Positions 3,510-10,548 of a stretch of 23,907 bases of DNA are shown in pieces (within the stretch, counting starts at the first letter, position 1; each line of letters starts with the position of its first letter). Source of the stretch: a virus (Duplodnaviria; Heunggongvirae; Uroviricota; Caudoviricetes). The position numbers were made by a program, and so were the translations under genes. The notes under the pieces are model-generated. The model was not told the origin of the DNA, did no database searches, and saw only the letters and a program-made list of their open reading frames with translations. The stretch lies in IMG/VR virus record IMGVR_UViG_2711768040_000013; one strand, given 5' to 3'.

Positions 3510-5775
3510 AGCCTCCGGGCATTTTGTCCCTCCGTCAGCATTTGCCGCAGGCACCGGTAAGACGTTTACCGGTGCTTATGCATGGAACGCGCCACGCGAG
3601 GCCGTCGGGCGCGAAAGACCCCTTACACGTGACGAGATGCGTCAGGTGCAAGGTGTTTTATCCACGATTAACCGCCTGCCTTACTTTTTGCGCTCGCTGT
3701 TTACTTCACGCTATGACTACATCCGGCGCAATAAAAGCCCGGTGCACGGGTTTTATTTCCTCACATCCACTTTTCAGCGTCGTTTATGGCCGCGCATTGA
3801 GCGCGTGAATCAGCGCCATGAAATGAACACCGACGCGTCGTTGCTGTTTCTGGCAGAGCGCGACCATTATGCGCGCCTGCCGGGGATGAATGACAAGGAG
3901 CTGAAAAAGTTTGCCGCCCGTATCTCATCACAGCTTTTCATGATGTATGAGGAACTCTGCGATGCCTGGGTGGATGCGCATGGCGAGAAAGAATCGCTGT
4001 TTACGGATGAGGCGCAGGCTCACCTCTATGGTCATGTTGCTGGCGCTGCACGTGCTTTCAATATTTCCCCTCTCTACTGGAAAAAATACCGTAAAGGACA
4101 GATGACCACGAGGCAGGCATATTCTGCCATTGCCCGCCTGTTTAACGATGAGTGGTGGACTCATCAGCTTAAAGGCCAGCGTATGCGCTGGCATGAGGCG
4201 TTACTGATTGCTGTCGGGGAGGTCAATAAAGACCGTTCTCCTTATGCCAGTAAACATGCCATTCGTGATGTGCGTGCGCGCCGCCAGGCAAATCTGGAGT
4301 TTCTTAAATCGTGTGACCTTGAGAACAGGGAAACCGGCGAGCGCATCGACCTTATCAGTAAGGTGATGGGCAGTATTTCTAATCCTGAAATTCGCCGGAT
4401 GGAGCTGATGAACACCATTGCCGGTATTGAGCGTTACGCCGCTGCAGAGGGTGACGTGGGGATGTTTATCACGCTGACCGCGCCGTCAAAGTATCACCCG
4501 ACACGTCAGGTCGGAAAAGGCGAAAGTAAAACCGTGCAGCTTAATCACGGCTGGAACGATGAGGCATTTAATCCAAAGGATGCGCAGCGTTATCTCTGCC
4601 GTATCTGGAGCCTGATGCGCACGGCATTCAAGGATAATGATTTACAGGTCTACGGTTTGCGTGTCGTCGAGCCACACCACGACGGAACGCCGCACTGGCA
4701 TATGATGCTTTTTTGTAATCCACGCCAGCGTAACCAGATTATTGAAATCATGCGTCGCTACGCGCTCAAAGAGGATGGAGACGAAAGAGGAGCCGCGCGA
4801 AACCGTTTTCAGGCAAAACATCTTAACCGGGGCGGTGCTGCGGGGTATATCGCGAAATACATCTCAAAAAATATCGACGGCTATGCACTGGATGGTCAGC
4901 TCGATAATGATACCGGCAGACCGCTGAAAGATACTGCCGCGGCTGTTACCGCATGGGCGTCAACGTGGCGCATCCCGCAATTTAAAACGGTTGGTCTGCC
5001 GACAATGGGGGCTTACCGTGAACTACGCAAATTGCCTCGCGGCGTCAGCATTGCTGATGAGTTTGACGAGCGCGTCGAGGCTGCACGCGCCGCTGCAGAC
5101 AGTGGTGATTTTGCGTTGTATATCAGCGCGCAGGGCGGGGCAAATGTCCCGCGCGATTGTCAGACTGTCAGGGTCGCCCGTAGCCCGTCGGATGACGTTA
5201 ACGAGTACGAGGAAGAAGTCGAGAGAGTGGTCGGCATTTACGCGCCGCATCTCGGCGCGCGTCATATTCATATCACCAGAACCACGGACTGGCGCATTGT
5301 GCCGAAAGTGCCGGTCGTTGAGCCTTTGACTTTAAAAAGCGGCATCGCCGCGCCTCGGAGTCCTGTCAATAACTGTGGAAAGCTCACCGGTGGTGATACT
5401 TCGTTACCGGCTCCCACACCTTCTGAACACGCCGCAGCAGTGCTTAATCTGGTTGATGACGGTGTTATCGAATGGAATGACCCGGAGGTCGTGAGGGCGC
5501 TCAGGGGCGCATTAAAATACGGGCTGAGAACACCAAATCGTCAGCAGAGAAACGGAAGCCCGTTAAAACCACATGAAATTGCACCATCGGCCAGACTGAC
5601 CCGGTCGGAAAGAATGCAAATTACCCGTATCCGCGTTGACCTTGCTCAGAACGGTATCAGGCCGCAGCGATGGGAGCTTGAGGCGCTGGCGCGTGGCGCG
5701 ACCGTAAATTATGACGGGAAACCTTTCACTTATCAGGTCGCTGATGATTGGCCGGGATTTTTGTTACCCATTTGA
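3499..5775 (+). CDS. A: Rolling-circle replication initiator endonuclease (P2 gpA-like)
   Basis: Protein from MAVKASGHFVPPSAFAAGTGK resembles P2 A as recalled; HUH-type metal-binding motif HWHMMLF and tyrosine motif YIAKYISKN present; track start 3457 would add 14 residues and a longer overlap. Confidence 0.88.
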   Translation: MAVKASGHFVPPSAFAAGTGKTFTGAYAWNAPREAVGRERPLTRDEMRQVQGVLSTINRLPYFLRSLFTSRYDYIRRNKSPVHGFYFLTSTFQRRLWPRIERVNQRHEMNTDASLLFLAERDHYARLPGMNDKELKKFAARISSQLFMMYEELCDAWVDAHGEKESLFTDEAQAHLYGHVAGAARAFNISPLYWKKYRKGQMTTRQAYSAIARLFNDEWWTHQLKGQRMRWHEALLIAVGEVNKDRSPYASKHAIRDVRARRQANLEFLKSCDLENRETGERIDLISKVMGSISNPEIRRMELMNTIAGIERYAAAEGDVGMFITLTAPSKYHPTRQVGKGESKTVQLNHGWNDEAFNPKDAQRYLCRIWSLMRTAFKDNDLQVYGLRVVEPHHDGTPHWHMMLFCNPRQRNQIIEIMRRYALKEDGDERGAARNRFQAKHLNRGGAAGYIAKYISKNIDGYALDGQLDNDTGRPLKDTAAAVTAWASTWRIPQFKTVGLPTMGAYRELRKLPRGVSIADEFDERVEAARAAADSGDFALYISAQGGANVPRDCQTVRVARSPSDDVNEYEEEVERVVGIYAPHLGARHIHITRTTDWRIVPKVPVVEPLTLKSGIAAPRSPVNNCGKLTGGDTSLPAPTPSEHAAAVLNLVDDGVIEWNDPEVVRALRGALKYGLRTPNRQQRNGSPLKPHEIAPSARLTRSERMQITRIRVDLAQNGIRPQRWELEALARGATVNYDGKPFTYQVADDWPGFLLPI

Positions 5776-6035
5776 GTAAAAATACAGCGTGATTTTATAT
5801 GTCTTTGAATGGATTATGCGAAGCACCTCTAAGGTAGATGAGGAGCAATAGCGTGTTGAATCAGAAGGCTAAATTGTATTGAATCGTTAGCATGTAATTG
5901 AAGGCAGCTATTTGATTCGAGTCATAAAAGAGCATCTATTTCGGTTAATAAAACCATTGCGAGTGACTTTATGTCGAAGCATAATTCATCTCGAGCGAAG
6001 TCTTGCTAGTCTTTCATCGGATTGATGACGGGCGC

Positions 6036-6066
6036 AAAAAAACCACCCTGGCAGGTGGTTTTTTTG
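6036..6066. terminator. Bidirectional rho-independent terminator
   Basis: AAAAAAACCACC-CTGGCA-GGTGGTTTTTTT: perfect GC-containing stem flanked by A-tract and T-tract; about 260 bp after the gene A stop. Confidence 0.75.
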
Positions 6067-6077
6067 TTTGAAGCATA

Positions 6078-6191
6078 CTAAAGAAAAATACTTACATGGA
6101 TATTACTGACGTTTACTGACAAACCACTCGGACTACCATATGGATAGCCAAAGAGGGCCAGAACGAGAATGCAGTAATAGCACTTCTTCAT
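6078..6191 (-). CDS. Small hydrophobic peptide (37 aa, MKKCYYCILVLALFGYPYGSPSGLSVNVSNIHVSIFL), function unknown
   Basis: ATG at 6191 with AGGAGG 4 nt upstream on the minus strand; stop about 12 nt before the bidirectional terminator; below the 60-aa track cut-off; hand translation. Confidence 0.3.
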   Translation of the reverse strand: MKKCYYCILVLALFGYPYGSPSGLSVNVSNIHVSIFL

Positions 6192-6847
6192 ATCGCCTCC
6201 TGTAAGCAGAGGGCAATTTCCGCCGATATATGCGCTTCTAAGGCGGAGTGACTATTGAGCGAAGTCTTGCCCTGAAATAATGCTCTGTTTAAACGCAAAG
6301 TGATCTGGCATATCACTGAACAGAGAACCTGAACAACACAACATATAGTATGTCGTTGTTTCTGGTTGCATTTTATGTTGTGTAATACTGGTTTTGCATC
6401 AAGGATGTTTGAGCTTTTTTTGATATAGCTCAAAGTAAAAAGCAGAGACTACGGATGATAAGGTCTTGAAAGCAATGTAAATTTTTTAAAGTTGTGAGTG
6501 GCTAGAAATGCACAGTTTCAATATGGCGGATTTAAACAAGTAATTAAAAATAGCGCCATAAATTCCAATAAAATCATTATGTTGCGTTTTCTGTGGAAAC
6601 TGCGGTGACTCTGAAATTTTCTTTTAGTGTCGCTGAGGTTTAACAACTCGCTGCGCAAGTAGTTAGTGTTTTTTTAACTCAATATCCTGATTTATAAGGT
6701 TTTTTATAAATCGTTGGCTGATTGCGCGTATTCATCTCGTGTTATCAGCAAAGATAAGCGCTATATGCAAAACTGAATGCATATATGATGTCGAAAATGT
6801 TATGGGAAAACGTGGATTAGTGTTATAGTAATGGCTGAAAAACAGCC

Positions 6848-6876
6848 TTGACATAAAATAACAACTGTGATATGGC
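6848..6876 (+). promoter_or_regulatory. Candidate sigma70 promoter for the peptidase gene (perfect -35 TTGACA, weak -10 near TATGGC)
   Basis: TTGACA at 6848-6853 with a poor -10 about 17 bp downstream, roughly 40 bp before the ATG at 6913. Confidence 0.3.
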
Positions 6877-6912
6877 TGTGCATACTTAACTTTTTTAACG
6901 TAGGAGGCAACC

Positions 6913-7398
6913 ATGAGCTATGCAGCTAAAAAACTGCTTGACCGCTATTGGGATCGCCGACTACCTGTCGATCCGTTTAAGCTTGCTAAAGCGTGGGGTG
7001 CTCGTGTTGAAGCACTTGAGGAATCGGCTTATAACAACGATGGGTTAAGCGGTCTGGCTGTCATCAAAAAGGGTGTCCATAGGATTTATTTTGATTCTAG
7101 TGAACATTCTAATCGTCAACGTTTTACTGTTGCACACGAGTTAGGTCATCATGTGCTGGGGCATACCCAGGACGGAGAGTACCATCGGGATAATGTCGGG
7201 AATTATTCAACAGGTGCTCGTGATTACCGTGAGGTTGAAGCAAACAAGTTTGCTGCTGAGTTGTTAATGCCTGAGTCTGCTATACGTCAATTGGTATCCA
7301 GAGAAGGTATTGATAGCACTTTGAGATTAGCAAGCATCTTTAATGTATCAGAAGCCGCTATGCATTGGCGCTTAAAGAGCTTAGGAATGGCTTATTAA
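6913..7398 (+). CDS. ImmA/IrrE-family (COG2856-like) zinc metallopeptidase, standalone
   Basis: HEXXH motif HELGH at 7135-7149 within FTVAHELGHHVLGH, followed by EVEANKFAAELLMPE as in ImmA/IrrE peptidases; AGGAGG Shine-Dalgarno 5 nt before the ATG; no HTH domain in the protein or in an adjacent ORF. Confidence 0.7.
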   Translation: MSYAAKKLLDRYWDRRLPVDPFKLAKAWGARVEALEESAYNNDGLSGLAVIKKGVHRIYFDSSEHSNRQRFTVAHELGHHVLGHTQDGEYHRDNVGNYSTGARDYREVEANKFAAELLMPESAIRQLVSREGIDSTLRLASIFNVSEAAMHWRLKSLGMAY

Positions 7399-7424
7399 TT
7401 AGCCTTTAACTTTTAACCTGTTTA

Positions 7425-7464
7425 AAATCACCTTTACGTTTGTACATGTAAGGGTGATTTTTTT
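7425..7464 (+). terminator. Hairpin plus T7 tract (terminator-like) directly abutting the next start codon
   Basis: AAATCACCTTTAC pairs with GTAAGGGTGATTT (13-bp stem, one U-G wobble), then TTTTTTT 7458-7464; the ATG of the next ORF starts at 7465 and its GGGTGA ribosome-binding site lies in the 3' arm. Confidence 0.55.
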
Positions 7465-8064
7465 ATGGCTGATATTGATTTATCTGGACAGTCCCCAGAG
7501 CAAGGAACCACTCCTAAGGGCGATTTAGATCCTGATATCCTTATAAGGCGAGATCGACGCGATGGTATAGAGCGTAGAAGTATGCGATTAGTGCTCTCTG
7601 CCGTTGTGCTTTGTTTTGCTTGTACATTTCTATGGCAGGGGCTTAACTTTGCTTTGGCTGTTGGAAATGGCTTGCTGGAAGCGAAAAGCAGTATTGCCAC
7701 AGCGATAACACAAAAAGTAGATGCACAAACTTGTGTTTCAGCAGAAAAATGTTCTGCTTTATCTGCGGATCCGAAGATGGCTGATGAGAGGATAACACCA
7801 TCTTCAGACACTAATAAAGTTAGAAAATCTATTTCTGGTTTATCCACCGATTGGTTATCGGCCAGTTCTCTAATAGCTATTGTTGCATTCATCCTTGGTG
7901 TGGGTTTAACTTTGCTTTTGACTCTTCTTAAATCAGCATTTCAACACCCGACAGATAAAGACTTTAGAACAAAGTCGACATCTAATACTATTGAGTTGGC
8001 CACGCCAATCAGTGAATTAATAATTGGTGTTCTGAATATAATTAAAGACAAACTATCTAAGTAA
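7465..8064 (+). CDS. Membrane protein with two predicted transmembrane segments (199 aa), function unknown
   Basis: Hydrophobic stretches LVLSAVVLCFACTFLWQGLNFALAV and LIAIVAFILGVGLTLLLTLL; basic N-terminus (RRDRRDGIERR); start uncertain (internal ATG at 7582 possible). Confidence 0.55.
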   Translation: MADIDLSGQSPEQGTTPKGDLDPDILIRRDRRDGIERRSMRLVLSAVVLCFACTFLWQGLNFALAVGNGLLEAKSSIATAITQKVDAQTCVSAEKCSALSADPKMADERITPSSDTNKVRKSISGLSTDWLSASSLIAIVAFILGVGLTLLLTLLKSAFQHPTDKDFRTKSTSNTIELATPISELIIGVLNIIKDKLSK

Positions 8065-8106
8065 AGCATTAGTTGTGATTTTTTATTGGTTTTAGTGATA
8101 ATACAT

Positions 8107-8140
8107 CTCCAGTACTTATTGCTACTGGAGAGTATTTTTA
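8107..8140 (+). terminator. Hairpin CTCCAGTA-N8-TACTGGAG plus T-rich tail between convergent genes
   Basis: Perfect 8-bp inverted repeat 8107-8114 / 8123-8130 followed by AGTATTTTTA. Confidence 0.45.
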
Positions 8141-8146
8141 GTCGTT

Positions 8147-9088
8147 TTATATTTTTAATGTTAGTGAATGATATTCACGAGAGTTCACGTTCGATGTGAT
8201 GTAATCGGGGGCGTTAACACCAAGAATCGCAACGAGCAATCGGCAAATTAAAGCCTGCATTTGTTGTAATATGTCATCTCCATATTGATAATTGTTAATA
8301 GTGGTAAAGCCAAGTGGTTGACCATGAAACATAGCTTCATGAAAGTTTTCATTGCGGATGTTTGTAATGTTTTTTTTGCCTGTAACCCATGATGGTCGTG
8401 GTATGCCATAAGTTTTGCAGATCCACTTCAAGCGCCTGGAGTGATTTAGAGTCTTTTCTGTACACTTGTTCTTTTCTGCCCATGTTAAAGCAAAGCAACT
8501 ATCCAGTGCCATATAAAGATACTGGAATTTTTCGAAGCTAAGGTATTGTGGGTTTTGGGATAAAAATAGTGCATGCACTATTGCTGCTATATTTATTGGT
8601 GCGTGTTTGGTTTTTTTCTCGCTAGACATGTATTTGAGTGCTAATTCTATAACCTCTTTTTCAGAGCACTTGACCAGAATAAAGTCAGTTAATTTGCTGG
8701 GTTTTATTGGGGTTGCGTCTAAAAAACCGGCATCAGTAGTTGTTAATCTTATCCCTTTGAAAAAAGACAGACACCACACAGCAAAATTGAGAGTTTCTAG
8801 TGAAGATGTATTTTTTAATTTTAGTGAGTGTGTTTTGGGTAAGCCAAATACTCGTTGGCTAAAAGGCATTGTGGATATGCCTCCATTGAGGTTATATACT
8901 TCTTGGTTTCCTGGGTATATCCAACCGTTAATAACATTTCTGTGATTGTTTATAAGATTTGTTTTTTCCGCTAGACCGGGTAAAGTAAGTAAAGAAAAAT
9001 CATCAGTTTCAACGTTAACCTCTACTGGATAGTATCCAAACTCAGCTTCAATATCATTGGATTGCTGTTCGTCAACTTTACCTTGCAT
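8147..9088 (-). CDS. Hypothetical 313-aa protein with C-terminal HEPN-like RNxxxH motif (candidate abortive-infection RNase)
   Basis: Long ORF in visibly AT-rich DNA; GGAG Shine-Dalgarno 6 nt before the ATG at 9088; R245-N-E-N-F-H250 encoded at 8339-8356 fits the Rx4-6H HEPN signature; no P-loop; otherwise not recognised. Confidence 0.6.
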   Translation of the reverse strand: MQGKVDEQQSNDIEAEFGYYPVEVNVETDDFSLLTLPGLAEKTNLINNHRNVINGWIYPGNQEVYNLNGGISTMPFSQRVFGLPKTHSLKLKNTSSLETLNFAVWCLSFFKGIRLTTTDAGFLDATPIKPSKLTDFILVKCSEKEVIELALKYMSSEKKTKHAPINIAAIVHALFLSQNPQYLSFEKFQYLYMALDSCFALTWAEKNKCTEKTLNHSRRLKWICKTYGIPRPSWVTGKKNITNIRNENFHEAMFHGQPLGFTTINNYQYGDDILQQMQALICRLLVAILGVNAPDYITSNVNSREYHSLTLKI

Positions 9089-9202
9089 ACATTGCTCCGG
9101 TCAAAAATAGGCTCGATAATTCTCGTAAGCCTATCATGTTCGCAAAGTATCCATACCTGTGGATTTTGTAAATTTAAGTTGATTTGTCATTAAATAAGCC
9201 GT

Positions 9203-9231
9203 GCATGCAACAAGTGAATGTTTTTGCATGC
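9203..9231. promoter_or_regulatory. Inverted repeat GCATGCAA-N13-TTGCATGC upstream of the 313-aa gene
   Basis: Read directly; about 115 bp upstream of the 313-aa gene start, in its likely promoter region. Confidence 0.3.
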
Positions 9232-9325
9232 GTCGGGGATGCCCGTTCCGGCTGCTTGCGGTCAGAGCTGGTGCGGATCCATAGTATCTAAGCAACTGCA
9301 TTAAAACCGCCCTATGAAGCGGGCG

Positions 9326-9344
9326 GGCGAGGCGGGGAAAGCAC
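9326..9344. other. cos site: 19-nt P2-type cohesive-end sequence GGCGAGGCGGGGAAAGCAC
   Basis: Exact match to the P2 cohesive end as I recall it, in the expected position downstream of Q, inside a GC-rich non-coding stretch. Confidence 0.7.
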
Positions 9345-9486
9345 TGCGCGCTGGCGGTGGTGCTGATTTTATTTTTTCAGCGTCTGAGCGCGTCGTGACG
9401 GCGCTTAGTCTGCCCGTTGAGGCGTTGGTGTGTCTGCGGGGTGTTTTGTGCGGTGGTGAGCGTGTGAGGGCGTGATGACGAGGTGT

Positions 9487-9510
9487 AAAAAAGCCGCCCG
9501 CAGGCGGCGA
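9487..9510 (-). terminator. Rho-independent terminator after portal gene Q (minus strand)
   Basis: On the minus strand GCCGCC-TGCG-GGCGGC followed by TTTTTT, immediately 3' of the Q stop. Confidence 0.6.
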
Positions 9511-9513
9511 TGT

Positions 9514-10548
9514 TCAGCCGTTGTCAGTGTCCAGTGAGTAGTTTTTAAAGCGGATGACCTCCTGACCGAGCCAGCCGTTTATCTCGCGGATCCTGTCCTG
9601 TAACGGGATAAGCTCATTGCGGACAAAGACCTTTGCCACTTTCTCAATATCTCCCAGTGACCCGACGTTCTCCGGCTTGCCGCCCATCAACTGAAAGGGG
9701 ATGCGGTGTGCGTCCAGCAGGTCTGCGGCGCTGGCTTTTTTGATATTAAAAAAATCGTCCTTCGTCGCCACTTCACTGAGCGGGATAATTTTAATGCCGT
9801 CGGCTTTCCCTTGCGGGGCATAGAGAAACAGATTTTTAAAGTTGTTGCGGCCTTTCGACTTCACCATGTTTTCGCGGAGCATTTCGATATCGTTGCGATC
9901 CTGCACGGCATCGGTGACGTACATGATGTATCCGGCATGTGCGCCGTTTTCGTAATACTTGCGGCGGAACAGCGTGGCCGACTCATTCAGCCAGGCAGAG
10001 TTAAGGGCGCTGAGATATTCCGGCAGGCCGTACAGCTCCTGATTAATATCCGGCTCCAGCAGGTGAAACACGGAGCCGGGCGCGAAAGGTGTCGGCTCAT
10101 GGAAGGACGGCACCCACCAGTAAACATCCTCTTCCACGCCACGGCGGGTATATTTTGCCGGTGAGGTTTCCAGTCTGATGACCTTACCGGTGGTGCTGTA
10201 ACGCTTTTCCAGAAACGCATTACCGAACACCAGAAAATCCAGCACAAAGCGGCTGAAATCCTGCTGAGAAAGCCACGGGTGCGGGATAAACGTTGAAGCC
10301 AGAATATTGCGTTTGACGTAAATCGGTGAGCTGTGATGCACGGCAGCACGCAGGCTTTTTGCCAGACCGGTAAAGCTGACCGGTGGCTCATACCATCTGC
10401 CGTTACTGATGCACTCGACGTAATCCAGAATGTCACGGCGGTCGAGTACCGGCACCGGCTCACCAAAGGTGAATGCCTCCATTTTCGGGGCGCTGGCGGT
10501 CATTTTTTTTGCCGCAGGTTGCGGTGTTTTCCCTTTTTTCTTGCTCAT
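9514..10548 (-). CDS. Q: Portal protein (P2 gpQ-like)
   Basis: 344 aa, same length as P2 Q; position and orientation next to terminase as in P2. Confidence 0.88.
   Translation of the reverse strand: MSKKKGKTPQPAAKKMTASAPKMEAFTFGEPVPVLDRRDILDYVECISNGRWYEPPVSFTGLAKSLRAAVHHSSPIYVKRNILASTFIPHPWLSQQDFSRFVLDFLVFGNAFLEKRYSTTGKVIRLETSPAKYTRRGVEEDVYWWVPSFHEPTPFAPGSVFHLLEPDINQELYGLPEYLSALNSAWLNESATLFRRKYYENGAHAGYIMYVTDAVQDRNDIEMLRENMVKSKGRNNFKNLFLYAPQGKADGIKIIPLSEVATKDDFFNIKKASAADLLDAHRIPFQLMGGKPENVGSLGDIEKVAKVFVRNELIPLQDRIREINGWLGQEVIRFKNYSLDTDNG

What the first reader, a model, noticed from the sequence alone, without database searches (positions are those of the whole stretch)
6067..9325. Low-GC cargo island at the gene A-cos hotspot (where P2 has tin/old) with three unrecognised genes: candidate undescribed defence system
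Everything flanking this interval is P2-like backbone. The interval between the terminator after gene A and the cos site is visibly AT-rich and encodes three proteins: a standalone ImmA/IrrE-like zinc peptidase (6913-7398), a two-transmembrane-segment protein (7465-8064) and a convergent 313-aa protein with a HEPN-like RNxxxH motif (8147-9088). None matches tin or old as I recall them. This position in P2-like prophages is an established hotspot for anti-phage cargo. A protease, a membrane protein and a putative RNase together look like a sensor/regulator plus effector arrangement, but this exact combination is not a system I recognise.
Basis: partly seen in the sequence, partly recalled or inferred. 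Interest (0 to 1): 0.88.

Follow-up and report, generated by a model that had tools for sequence, protein, structure and literature searches.

The report
Mosaic cargo island in P2 prophage
The AT-rich island between gene A and cos of this P2-like E. coli prophage is real, but it is a patchwork of independent, already catalogued cargo modules (a protease plus membrane-protein pair, a solitary HEPN-type RNase, and a small-peptide gene), not one new three-gene defence system.

Summary
A low-GC island (0.39 against 0.49 and 0.56 in the flanks) fills the gpA-cos hotspot of a P2-like prophage, with the three ORFs at the stated coordinates. The one-system reading does not hold.

ImmA (161 aa) plus the 2TM protein is a self-contained two-gene cassette with its own conserved promoter. 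It occurs without ORF313 in other P2-like phages, other prophages, plasmids and chromosomes. ORF313 is a solitary gene: 37 of 46 viral loci carrying it lack the pair, and in three loci it is the only sizeable hotspot ORF.

Rousset et al. 2022 already list the two as separate P2-hotspot entries, no. 21 (148 loci) and no. 11 (218 loci). They cloned a related pair (pFR104), which is listed among the tested but unvalidated systems.

ORF313 belongs to a large family with no Pfam or PADLOC match. It has an invariant Rx4H motif and a HEPN-like C-terminal fold.

My best reading is a RosmerTA-like protease-controlled membrane toxin plus an ApeA/DARNA-like single-protein HEPN abortive nuclease. Both functions are inferred.

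A third, unnoticed unit lies at 6036-6489 on the minus strand: a 37-aa ORF with a structured leader and an nrdD-like FNR promoter.

The parts
5776..6035 (.). AT-rich segment directly after the gpA stop codon; left edge of the cargo island, with no convincing ORF
   Evidence: GC is 0.388. Only ORFs of 37 aa or fewer occur here. The segment is conserved only in the window-type and TA280-type P2 phages.
6036..6066 (.). Bidirectional intrinsic terminator (AAAAAAACCACC-CTGGCA-GGTGGTTTTTTT). It ends the gpA transcript on the + strand and the small-ORF transcript on the - strand.
   Evidence: The sequence was read. The stem and T-run are nearly invariant in the Klebsiella and Enterobacter plasmid homologues of the small-ORF unit.
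6078..6191 (-). Unannotated 37-aa ORF (MKKCYYCILVLALFGYPYGSPSGLSVNVSNIHVSIFL) with an AGGAGG Shine-Dalgarno sequence
   Evidence: Found. Full-length homologues at about 55-65% identity sit in unannotated stretches of 392 plasmids, mostly Klebsiella. The ORF is 97% identical in the TA280-type P2 phage.
6192..6392 (-). About 200-nt conserved leader of the small ORF. Predicted stem-loops include one that pairs the Shine-Dalgarno sequence.
   Evidence: The leader is at least as conserved as the ORF between the prophage and the plasmids. The RNAalifold consensus is -47.7 kcal/mol with the SD sequestered, but there is almost no covariation with only 4 sequences. No Rfam family matches.
6393..6489 (-). 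Promoter region of the small-ORF unit. It is homologous to the E. coli treC-nrdD intergenic region and carries FNR-type boxes (TTGAGCTATATCAA and TTGATGCAAAACCA on the - strand).
   Evidence: It is 84-86% identical to a site present in 5426 of 5426 E. coli genomes. That site lies between treC and nrdD; alignments are. The same promoter layout occurs in the plasmid copies. The FNR reading of the boxes rests on the known consensus TTGAT-N4-ATCAA.
6794..6912 (+). The ImmA-2TM cassette's own regulatory region: a conserved 50-bp block (6797-6846), a -35 TTGACA (6849-6854) and an AGGAGG ribosome-binding site
   Evidence: This is the only part of the 1.1-kb spacer conserved in every pair-bearing lineage, including Pectobacterium.
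6913..7398 (+). Short ImmA/IrrE-type zinc metallopeptidase, 161 aa. It consists of the peptidase domain only, with no HTH, no GAF domain and no cysteine.
   Evidence: Pfam Peptidase_M78 scores 3.8e-21. PADLOC capP scores 1e-30 but covers only profile positions 8-153 of 242, and the RmrA hits cover only the peptidase part. phrog_87 matches. The closest solved structure is CapP 7T5T, matched over the core only. Invariant residues are H75, E76, H79, H80, H84, H91, R92, D93, E107 and N111.
7465..8064 (+). 199-aa inner-membrane protein. It has an N-terminal cytoplasmic tail with a conserved DLSG motif and an Arg-rich stretch, then TM1 (about 41-63), a variable loop with two Cys, a highly conserved TM2 (about 137-160, AFILGVGLTLLLTLLK) and a C-terminal amphipathic helix.
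   Evidence: phrog_8096 matches, but there are no Pfam, PADLOC or NCBIfam hits. The homologue search found 51 proteins, aligned in A2. The AF2 model is a helical hairpin of moderate confidence, pLDDT 66.5. An ImmA gene lies immediately upstream in every locus examined.
8106..8131 (.). Bidirectional terminator between the convergent 2TM gene and ORF313
   Evidence: Found in the terminator scan, with 9 pairs. The sequence was read.
8147..9088 (-). ORF313: a solitary 313-aa protein with an N-terminal alpha/beta domain (about 10-160) and a C-terminal HEPN-like helical domain (about 163-300) carrying an invariant Rx4H motif (R245, H250)
   Evidence: - It has 603 homologues and 657 cluster representatives at 50% identity.
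- R245 and H250 are invariant down to 26% identity.
- The AF2 model has pLDDT 82.7 and pTM 0.83.
- Pfam, PADLOC and NCBIfam give no hits, including for divergent members.
9089..9290 (-). ORF313 upstream region with candidate promoters; right edge of the cargo
   Evidence: Promoter-like sites lie at 9190-9163 and 9104-9075. Homology with the P2-EC67 ORF313 module extends to about 9298, and backbone homology starts at about 9262-9292.
9326..9344 (.). P2-type cos core (GGCGAGGCGGGGAAAGCAC); a backbone landmark, not cargo
   Evidence: It is an exact single match in the window. The same core occurs in the P4 and P2 constructs listed by Rousset et al..

Best explanation
The island is a mosaic of three independently mobile accessory units parked in the P2 gpA-cos hotspot.

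1. ImmA-2TM cassette (6794-8135, + strand).
   - Shown: it is a conserved two-gene operon with its own promoter.
   - Inferred: it works like a RosmerTA-type toxin-antitoxin defence. The 2TM protein is a pore-forming or depolarising membrane toxin. The cytoplasmic ImmA-type zinc peptidase controls it, most likely by cleaving one of its cytoplasmic tails or by holding it inactive. A phage cue that changes peptidase activity would then release membrane damage and abort infection.

2. ORF313 (8147-9290, - strand).
   - Shown: it is a solitary gene whose C-terminal half is a HEPN-type domain with an invariant Rx4H motif.
   - Inferred: it works like the single-protein HEPN defence nucleases ApeA and DARNA. 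It would dimerise through HEPN, stay auto-inhibited by its N-terminal domain, and cut tRNA or mRNA once that domain senses infection.

3. Small-ORF unit (6036-6489, - strand).
   - Shown: a 37-aa hydrophobic peptide gene with a long structured leader and an nrdD-like promoter, shared with Klebsiella plasmids.
   - Inferred: it is an FNR-controlled small membrane peptide, possibly a type I toxin.

None of the three units needs the others.
For: Modularity:
- The pair occurs without ORF313 in the following places:
  - a P2-like phage of the TA280 type;
  - 7 of 16 viral loci;
  - a Serratia chromosome, an Enterobacter plasmid, a Vibrio island, a Pectobacterium prophage and another phage.
- ImmA lies directly upstream of the 2TM gene in 16 of 16 viral loci.
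- The 120 bp upstream of ImmA are conserved in all pair-bearing lineages.
- ORF313 occurs without the pair in 37 of 46 viral loci. It is the only sizeable hotspot ORF in L068, L070 and L071.
- ORF313 homologues in Pseudomonas, Acinetobacter and Aeromonas have no conserved partner. Two sit beside an OLD-TOPRIM/AAA_15 gene or a DUF4238 gene.
- Rousset et al. list the two as separate entries, 11 and 21.

Generality of the pair:
- Among 80 viral loci with short ImmA homologues (35-100% identity), the next gene encodes a 97-239 aa protein with two predicted TM segments in 55 of 66 distinct cases. The two genes often overlap by 1-14 nt.
- Several of these downstream proteins are detectably homologous to the window protein.

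Mechanistic analogy for the pair:
- The peptidase matches the PADLOC RmrA and capP profiles.
- ImmA-protease antitoxins pair with many different toxins. The RosmerTA toxin of Gordonia phage Kita is membrane-depolarising, and that system gives very narrow-spectrum defence (PMC10440598).
- 2TM-ImmA-Beta arrangements link this peptidase clade to gop-beta-cII and PD-lambda-2.

ORF313 as HEPN:
- R245 and H250 are invariant across sequences 26-79% identical to the query.
- ApeA has the same N-terminal-unknown plus C-terminal-HEPN logic, and DARNA is also a single HEPN protein. Both cleave tRNA.
Against: - No function was tested here. Toxicity, proteolysis, RNase activity and phage protection are all inferred.
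- The closest tested relative of the pair is pFR104, which also contained the small-ORF unit. Rousset et al. list it only among tested but unvalidated systems, against their eight-phage panel.
- The peptidase lacks the HTH of RmrA and the GAF/HTH domains of CapP, so its input signal and its substrate are unknown.
- The pair and ORF313 co-occur again in a second, divergent lineage (L069/L087: 88%, 63% and 50% identity). In complete E. coli genomes the window alleles are almost always together (46 and 47 genomes). A functional link is therefore unlikely but not excluded.
Confidence: 0.6

Rival explanations
1. One reading: protease, membrane protein and HEPN protein form one integrated three-gene defence system, with a sensor/regulator and two effectors.
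For: - The three genes are adjacent in 46 complete E. coli genomes.
- The same three-gene layout recurs in a divergent lineage, UViG_3300009092_000028, with 88%, 63% and 50% protein identity.
Against: - 37 of 46 ORF313 loci lack the pair, and 7 of 16 pair loci lack ORF313.
- ORF313 is the sole hotspot gene in L068, L070 and L071.
- Outside P2 the two are never seen together.
- The genes are convergent, separated by a terminator, and have separate promoters.
- The curated catalogue lists them as separate entries.
Confidence: 0.07
2. The ImmA-2TM pair is a signalling or regulatory device rather than a toxin module. The membrane protein anchors or gates the peptidase. The real substrate would be a DNA-binding repressor encoded elsewhere, such as a prophage repressor of the host phage or of a rival, as in ImmA/ImmR, IrrE/DdrO, CapP/CapH or BlaR1/BlaI.
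For: - All characterised ImmA/IrrE/CapP peptidases cleave HTH repressors (PMC13228613; PMC10440598).
- A 50-bp block upstream of the cassette promoter is unusually conserved and could be an operator.
- TM2 is highly conserved while the loop is not.
Against: - No HTH gene accompanies the cassette in any context, whether prophage, plasmid or chromosome. A fixed external substrate is therefore unlikely.
- In remote homologues the loop between the TM segments shrinks to a few residues, which argues against an extracytoplasmic sensor.
- Translational coupling with a small 2TM protein is the usual layout of a toxin-antitoxin pair.
Confidence: 0.15
3. One or more of the modules are not anti-phage defence at all. 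They could be selfish addiction modules, superinfection-exclusion or lysogenic-conversion genes, or host-fitness cargo. ORF313 could even be an anti-defence RNase or ring nuclease that serves the prophage.
For: - The related pair gave no validated protection.
- Rousset et al. note that the hotspot also carries partition systems and toxins unrelated to defence.
- Only 3 of the 8 additional P2 hotspot systems they cloned were active.
- The small-ORF unit is mainly a plasmid element.
- HEPN enzymes can also degrade signalling nucleotides.
Against: - Six of eight random unknown P4 hotspot loci protected when tested on 28 phages (PMC13586616).
- ORF313 homologues sit beside known defence genes.
- RosmerTA-type defence can be extremely narrow, which makes an eight-phage negative result weak evidence.
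Confidence: 0.2

Closest known systems
RosmerTA (RmrT/RmrA) toxin-antitoxin defence, including the Gordonia phage Kita system
   Same: - An ImmA/IrrE zinc-peptidase protein is encoded next to, and co-transcribed with, a small unannotated toxin-like protein.
- The Kita toxin is membrane-localised and depolarising.
- The systems are phage- and plasmid-borne, and their defence is narrow-spectrum.
- The window peptidase hits 14 PADLOC RmrA profiles with E from 6e-17 to 5e-7 (PMC10440598).
   Different: - RmrA proteins are about 360-400 aa with an N-terminal XRE HTH. The window protein is 161 aa and matches only the peptidase part.
- The 2TM protein matches no RmrT or other PADLOC profile.
- Toxicity and neutralisation are untested.
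CapP/CapH, IrrE/DdrO and ImmA/ImmR protease-repressor switches
   Same: - The metallopeptidase core is the same, and CapP 7T5T is the best solved match (E 8e-7).
- The HExxH motif plus the downstream Glu are conserved.
- The size is close to B. subtilis ImmA, about 169 aa from my own knowledge.
   Different: - There is no partner HTH repressor.
- There is no GAF/HTH ssDNA-binding groove, and no cysteine switch because the protein contains no cysteine.
- The invariable neighbour is a 2TM membrane protein instead.
gop-beta-cII (P4) and PD-lambda-2
   Same: - These are hotspot-borne validated systems that combine a small 2TM protein (Gop) or a toxin with a Beta protein and, in variants, an M78 peptidase.
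- Relatives of the window peptidase at 35-42% identity occur in 2TM-ImmA-Beta operons.
   Different: - No Beta protein is encoded here.
- The window 2TM protein has a different layout from Gop and hits no gop or PD-lambda-2 profile.
Single-protein HEPN abortive-infection nucleases: ApeA, DARNA (PD-T7-3), PD-T4-2, AbiD/F-type
   Same: - ORF313 is one polypeptide with a non-catalytic domain plus a HEPN domain carrying Rx4H.
- It is a solitary gene in prophage hotspots and defence neighbourhoods.
- ApeA likewise has an unannotated N-terminal region and a C-terminal HEPN domain.
   Different: - ORF313 is only 313 aa. The catalytic Arg of Ec2ApeA is R502, and DARNA is 456 aa with its HEPN domain at the N-terminus.
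- It matches neither Pfam HEPN_Apea nor any PADLOC profile.
- Its N-terminal alpha/beta domain has no recognisable relative.
- Its substrate and activator are unknown.
Rousset et al. 2022 P2-hotspot catalogue, entries 11 and 21, and construct pFR104
   Same: - ORF313 is sequence-identical to entry 11 (218 loci).
- The peptidase is identical to protein 1 of entry 21 (148 loci), and the 2TM protein is identical from M41 onwards.
- pFR104 is the TA280 variant of the pair.
   Different: - The catalogue gives no function and no HEPN call for entry 11.
- It uses a shorter start for the 2TM protein.
- It does not note the small-ORF unit, or how widely the ImmA-2TM cassette occurs outside P2.

Membership tests
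ImmA/IrrE (Peptidase_M78, PF06114) | Zinc-metallopeptidase core with HExxH and a downstream Glu ligand | tested here: met
   Pfam scores 75.6 bits against a cut-off of 22. H75, E76, H79 and E107 are invariant in cassette homologues. The core aligns to CapP and IrrE structures.
CapP/CapH | C-terminal GAF and central HTH domains that form the ssDNA-binding groove | tested here: not met
   The 161-aa protein covers only capP profile positions 8-153 of 242. It aligns only to residues 75-155 of the 291-aa CapP. The domain requirement is described in PMC13228613.
CapP/CapH | Adjacent HTH repressor substrate (CapH/ImmR/DdrO-like) | tested here: not met
   No HTH ORF lies next to the peptidase in the window. 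None was seen in the other cassette contexts either.
RosmerTA | RmrA antitoxin consisting of an N-terminal XRE HTH fused to the ImmA peptidase | tested here: not met
   Matches to the RmrA profiles begin at profile positions 141-215 of 357-400, so only the peptidase part is present.
RosmerTA | Conserved two-gene operon of a peptidase protein plus a variable toxin | tested here: met
   ImmA lies directly upstream of the 2TM gene in 16 of 16 viral loci and in 5 non-P2 contexts. In the wider clade, 55 of 66 distinct downstream proteins have two predicted TM segments.
RosmerTA | The toxin is toxic, the peptidase protein neutralises it, and the system protects against phage | not testable with these tools
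   This needs expression and plaque assays. The related pFR104 construct was not validated on eight phages.
gop-beta-cII / PD-lambda-2 | Presence of a Beta protein (PD-lambda-2_C-like) | tested here: not met
   None of the three island proteins hits a beta or PD-lambda-2_C profile. Such proteins occur only in more distant ImmA loci: L162, L163 and L165-L167 by size and position, with L162 and L165 confirmed by PADLOC beta hits.
HEPN superfamily | Conserved Rx4-6H motif | tested here: met
   R245 and H250 are invariant and N246 is at least 90% conserved in two alignments. The sequences are 26-79% identical to the query.
HEPN superfamily | All-alpha HEPN fold | tested here: inconclusive
HEPN superfamily | Metal-independent RNase activity from a dimeric composite site | not testable with these tools
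   This needs biochemistry.
ApeA (HEPN_Apea) | Match to the HEPN_Apea model and the three-domain N/Mid/HEPN architecture | tested here: not met
   No Pfam hit at E up to 1 was found for the query, for the 33 other members of the first alignment, or for 10 divergent representatives. ORF313 is 313 aa with two domains, whereas ApeA has three domains with its catalytic Arg at 502.
HEPN-MNT (HepT/MntA) toxin-antitoxin | Adjacent MNT nucleotidyltransferase antitoxin | tested here: not met
   No partner gene is conserved next to ORF313 in any context.
P2 Old / Tin | Old: ABC-ATPase plus TOPRIM nuclease. Tin: the specific P2 protein. | tested here: not met
   The island proteins have no ATPase or TOPRIM domain. 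The island DNA shares only backbone stretches with most other P2-like phage records.

The most novel reading that the evidence does not exclude
The short ImmA peptidase plus 2TM protein cassette is a widespread, so far uncharacterised class of protease-gated membrane effector. It would be an HTH-less relative of RosmerTA that phages, plasmids and islands carry as an abortive-infection or exclusion module. ORF313 would found a new family of compact single-protein HEPN defence nucleases with a novel sensor domain. The island would also carry an FNR-controlled type I toxin-like peptide gene. One 3.5-kb hotspot would then hold three distinct untested conflict modules.
Probability: 0.3. Interest if true: 0.65.

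Novelty: new variant of a known kind. Interest (0 to 1): 0.45.

Why it matters
The work replaces a tempting three-gene-system story with testable single modules.

- **ImmA-2TM cassette.** It recurs in dozens of phage lineages, with 55 of 66 distinct neighbours being 2TM proteins. It could show how an ImmA-type protease controls a membrane toxin without any repressor. That would extend the RosmerTA and CapP paradigms.
- **ORF313.** It is the eleventh most common entry at the P2 hotspot and has 657 cluster representatives at 50% identity across bacteria. It lies outside Pfam and PADLOC, so current defence finders miss it. If it is an active HEPN nuclease, its N-terminal domain would be a new infection sensor.
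- **Limits.** The hotspot and both entries were already catalogued, and one relative already failed a small phage panel. This is a useful refinement rather than a surprise.

Tried and rejected
- Pfam, NCBIfam, PADLOC and PHROGs on the three proteins: only the peptidase is recognised. PHROGs gives unnamed families for the other two.
- Foldseek of the ORF313 model against the PDB and BFVD: no match at E of 0.001 or better. The afdb50 library was unavailable.
- Profile search of the ORF313 family against PDB sequences: only a marginal hit to the NrdB N-terminus (E 0.015). I treat it as chance.
- Pfam and PADLOC on 10 divergent ORF313 representatives: nothing.
- Two genome-contig scans for the 2TM family, by alignment and by degenerate DNA pattern: only chance matches in unrelated phyla. 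The family appears absent from species-representative genomes at that stringency.
- Rfam at E of 1 or better over 5600-9600: only sub-threshold hits such as RNAI and Phe_leader. No known RNA family matches.
- Literature searches by WP accession, ORF313 and P2-EC67: nothing relevant. The PD-lambda-2/gop search was uninformative. The 2026 NAR paper on P2/P4 hotspots cloned and tested P4 loci only, and no supplements are held for it.
- The idea that the 1.1-kb spacer is a decayed gene: no ORF or protein similarity supports it. Instead, part of the spacer is the small-ORF unit.
- The AF2 model of the 2TM protein has pLDDT 66.5, too low for a meaningful fold search.
- I considered and rejected membership of CapP, RmrA, gop-beta-cII, ApeA and HEPN-MNT, because defining features are missing (see the membership table).

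Full report
**Setting and observation**

The window is a P2-like (Peduovirus) prophage of E. coli. The replication gene A ends at 5775 (Pfam Phage_GPA, E 3e-124). The portal gene Q occupies 9514-10548 on the minus strand. The P2 cos core GGCGAGGCGGGGAAAGCAC is at 9326-9344.

Between these landmarks lies a 3.5-kb stretch with GC 0.388, against 0.489 on the left and 0.557 on the right. No backbone window of the same size falls below 0.456.

The low-GC cargo begins right after the gpA stop at 5776, not at 6067. Homology to other P2 backbones resumes at about 9262-9292. The identical island is present in 46 of 5426 complete E. coli genomes, where RefSeq annotates an ImmA/IrrE family metallo-endopeptidase and two hypothetical proteins.

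**Prior knowledge**

Rousset et al. 2022 (PMC9122126) defined this gpA-gpQ locus as a hotspot, with 1,650 arrangements in 18,150 loci.

- Table S5B lists ORF313, with identical sequence, as a single-gene entry 11 with 218 occurrences.
- It lists the Peptidase_M78 plus 2TM pair as a separate entry 21 with 148 occurrences. The peptidase is identical, and the 2TM protein is identical from M41 onwards.
- Table S5A also lists a two-gene arrangement with this same peptidase and no ORF313.
- Table S2B of additional tested systems contains pFR104, 'Peptidase + TM', from E. coli TA280. It was cloned from just after gpA to the gpQ end, and so carries its native upstream DNA.
- The paper reports activity for only three of the eight additional P2 systems, and pFR104 is not among the validated ones.
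- The window proteins are 88% (peptidase) and 54% (2TM) identical to that pair.
- No ORF313 relative appears among the tested constructs.
- A 2026 follow-up (PMC13586616) cloned and tested P4 loci only.

**The three genes are not one system**

*The pair without ORF313.* The TA280-type pair sits alone in the hotspot of a sequenced P2-like phage, OU784750. Distant homologues of the 2TM protein were examined in five other settings:

- a Serratia chromosome;
- an Enterobacter plasmid;
- a Vibrio island;
- a Pectobacterium prophage end;
- another phage.

Each is preceded, 30-75 bp upstream, by a 161-164 aa Peptidase_M78 gene, and none has ORF313 nearby. In IMG/VR, 16 of 16 loci with a 2TM relative have ImmA directly upstream, and 7 of the 16 lack ORF313.

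*ORF313 without the pair.* Of 46 viral loci with an ORF313 relative, 37 lack the pair. In L068, L070 and L071, ORF313 is the only sizeable ORF between gpA and gpQ. Elsewhere it sits with unrelated partners, such as ORF226 plus a DUF2158 protein in P2-EC67. Homologues in Pseudomonas, Acinetobacter and Aeromonas are solitary genes with no conserved neighbour. Two sit beside an OLD-TOPRIM/AAA_15 gene or a DUF4238 gene, and DUF4238 is itself a validated P2-hotspot defence gene.

*Separate expression signals.* The two modules are convergent and separated by a bidirectional terminator at 8106-8131. The pair has its own promoter region at 6794-6912. That region is the only part of the upstream 1.1 kb conserved in every pair-bearing lineage.

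*Caveat.* In complete E. coli genomes the window alleles almost always travel together (46 and 47 genomes). I read this as one successful prophage lineage. However, a second, divergent lineage (L069/L087) repeats the same three-gene layout. I therefore leave 7% on an integrated system.

**The ImmA-2TM cassette**

*The peptidase.* It is a bare M78 domain. HExxH (H75, E76, H79) and the downstream Glu are invariant. It has no cysteine, no HTH and no GAF domain.

- It matches only positions 8-153 of the 242-position capP profile.
- It matches only the peptidase part of the RmrA profiles.
- It matches only the core of the CapP and IrrE structures.

It therefore fails the defining features of CapP, namely the GAF/HTH ssDNA groove and a CapH partner (PMC13228613). 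It also fails those of RmrA, which carries an HTH fusion.

*The 2TM protein.*

- It has a cytoplasmic N-terminal tail with a conserved DLSG motif and an Arg-rich stretch before TM1.
- The loop is variable and contains two Cys.
- TM2 is almost invariant (AFILGVGLTLLLTLLK).
- A C-terminal amphipathic helix follows.
- The AF2 model is a helical hairpin of moderate confidence.

*Wider distribution.* I looked at 80 viral loci with short ImmA homologues at 35-100% identity. The next gene, often overlapping by 1-14 nt, encodes a 97-239 aa protein with two predicted TM segments in 55 of 66 distinct cases. Many share the DLS motif and the C-terminal helix, and several are detectably homologous. Five loci (L162, L163, L165-L167) instead carry a 350-370 aa gene downstream of ImmA, and in three of them (L165-L167) a small 2TM protein lies upstream, giving a 2TM-ImmA-Beta order. 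The two downstream proteins that I scanned, from L162 and L165, match the PADLOC beta profile. This ties the clade to gop-beta-cII and PD-lambda-2.

*Interpretation.* ImmA-protease proteins are an established hub antitoxin domain. The RosmerTA system of Gordonia phage Kita pairs one with a membrane-depolarising toxin, and it protects against only two BASEL phages (PMC10440598). On this basis I infer a protease-controlled membrane toxin. A negative result on an eight-phage panel is weak evidence against that. Which protein is toxin and which is regulator, and what the trigger is, remain unshown.

**ORF313**

The family is large and of fixed length.

- The homologue search found 603 proteins.
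- An exhaustive profile search found 657 cluster representatives at 50% identity.
- Members occur mainly in Gammaproteobacteria.
- Neither the query nor divergent members match any Pfam, NCBIfam or PADLOC model.

Across sequences 26-79% identical to the query, R245 and H250 of the RNENFH motif are invariant. So are H87, G112, E186, G260 and R283.

By architecture ORF313 resembles the single-protein HEPN defence nucleases ApeA and DARNA/PD-T7-3, which cleave tRNA anticodon loops once a ligand or ssDNA activates them. It is much smaller, fails the HEPN_Apea model, and has an N-terminal domain with no recognisable relative. It works like these nucleases but is not a member of either family.

**A third unit inside the interval**

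The 1.1 kb between gpA and ImmA is not empty. The stretch 6031-6500 is about 96% identical between the window-type and TA280-type phages, while the whole spacer is 87% identical. On the minus strand this stretch holds four elements:

- a promoter region at 6393-6489;
- a leader of about 200 nt;
- a 37-aa ORF (6191-6078) behind a perfect AGGAGG;
- the terminator at 6066-6036.

The whole unit is conserved in unannotated stretches of 392 plasmids, mostly from Klebsiella. The leader and terminator are at least as conserved as the ORF. A consensus fold sequesters the ribosome-binding site, although four sequences give almost no covariation.

The promoter is 84-86% identical to the treC-nrdD intergenic region, which is present in all 5426 E. 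coli genomes. It carries two FNR-type boxes. The layout is reminiscent of a type I toxin locus under anaerobic control, but this is conjecture. The pFR104 construct included this unit as well.

**Verdict**

The island is genuine hotspot cargo, and the domain guesses were good. It is nevertheless a mosaic of independent modules, two of them already catalogued and one relative already tested without success.

What is new here:

- the demonstration of modularity;
- the breadth of the HTH-less ImmA-2TM cassette;
- the HEPN assignment for entry 11, and its absence from current defence databases;
- the small-ORF unit.

All functions remain inferred. I rate this a new variant of known kinds, with interest 0.45.

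Noticed in passing
window 6036-6489 (- strand): An unannotated, conserved unit of about 430 nt. It comprises an FNR-box promoter, a structured leader of about 200 nt that pairs the Shine-Dalgarno sequence, a 37-aa hydrophobic ORF (6078-6191) and a terminator. Homologous units lie in unannotated stretches of 392 plasmids, mostly from Klebsiella. It looks like a type I toxin-like small-peptide gene.
   Followed up: partly
window 6393-6489; L092 1501-1597: This stretch is 84-86% identical to the treC-nrdD intergenic region, the nrdDG promoter area, found in 5426 of 5426 E. coli genomes. The small-ORF unit therefore uses, or shares ancestry with, an nrdD-type anaerobic promoter.
   Followed up: partly
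window 6797-6846: A 50-bp block just upstream of the -35 of the ImmA cassette is about 90% conserved between lineages whose 2TM proteins are only 55-63% identical. It could be an operator for an unknown regulator.
   Followed up: no
L005/L006 7463-9246 (Serratia): About 1.8 kb downstream of the ImmA-2TM pair lies a 223-aa ORF followed by a 371-aa HTH_3 plus Peptidase_M78 protein. This is a canonical RosmerTA-like pair. Both sit next to nrdG-nrdD, so two ImmA-type modules share one small island.
   Followed up: no
L069 / L087 (IMGVR_UViG_3300009092_000028): A divergent P2-like lineage repeats the ImmA, 2TM, convergent-ORF313 layout at 88%, 63% and 50% protein identity, without the 1.1-kb spacer. 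This is either an old shared arrangement or a repeated co-assembly.
   Followed up: partly
L162, L163, L165-L167: Short ImmA homologues at 35-42% identity are followed here by a 350-370 aa gene. In L165-L167 a small 2TM protein also lies upstream, giving a 2TM-ImmA-Beta order. The L162 and L165 downstream proteins match the PADLOC beta and PD-lambda-2_C profiles. This links the peptidase clade to gop-beta-cII-type systems.
   Followed up: partly
window 8147-9088, ORF313 residues about 240-280: The family profile shows a marginal similarity (E 0.015) between the Rx4H region (ISxxRNDxxHEAxFFxxPLGF) and the N-terminus of E. coli NrdB (FSQTKNDQLKEPMFFGQPV). It is probably chance.
   Followed up: no
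window 7465-7584: Rousset et al. start the 2TM protein at M41 (7585). The upstream 40 codons are conserved in homologues, with the MA..DLSG and ERR motifs, so the longer RefSeq start at 7465 is likely correct.
   Followed up: yes
ORF313 residue H87 (N-terminal domain, PKTH motif): An invariant histidine outside the HEPN domain is conserved down to 26% identity, together with E186 and R283. It could belong to a second site or to a composite active or sensor site.
   Followed up: no
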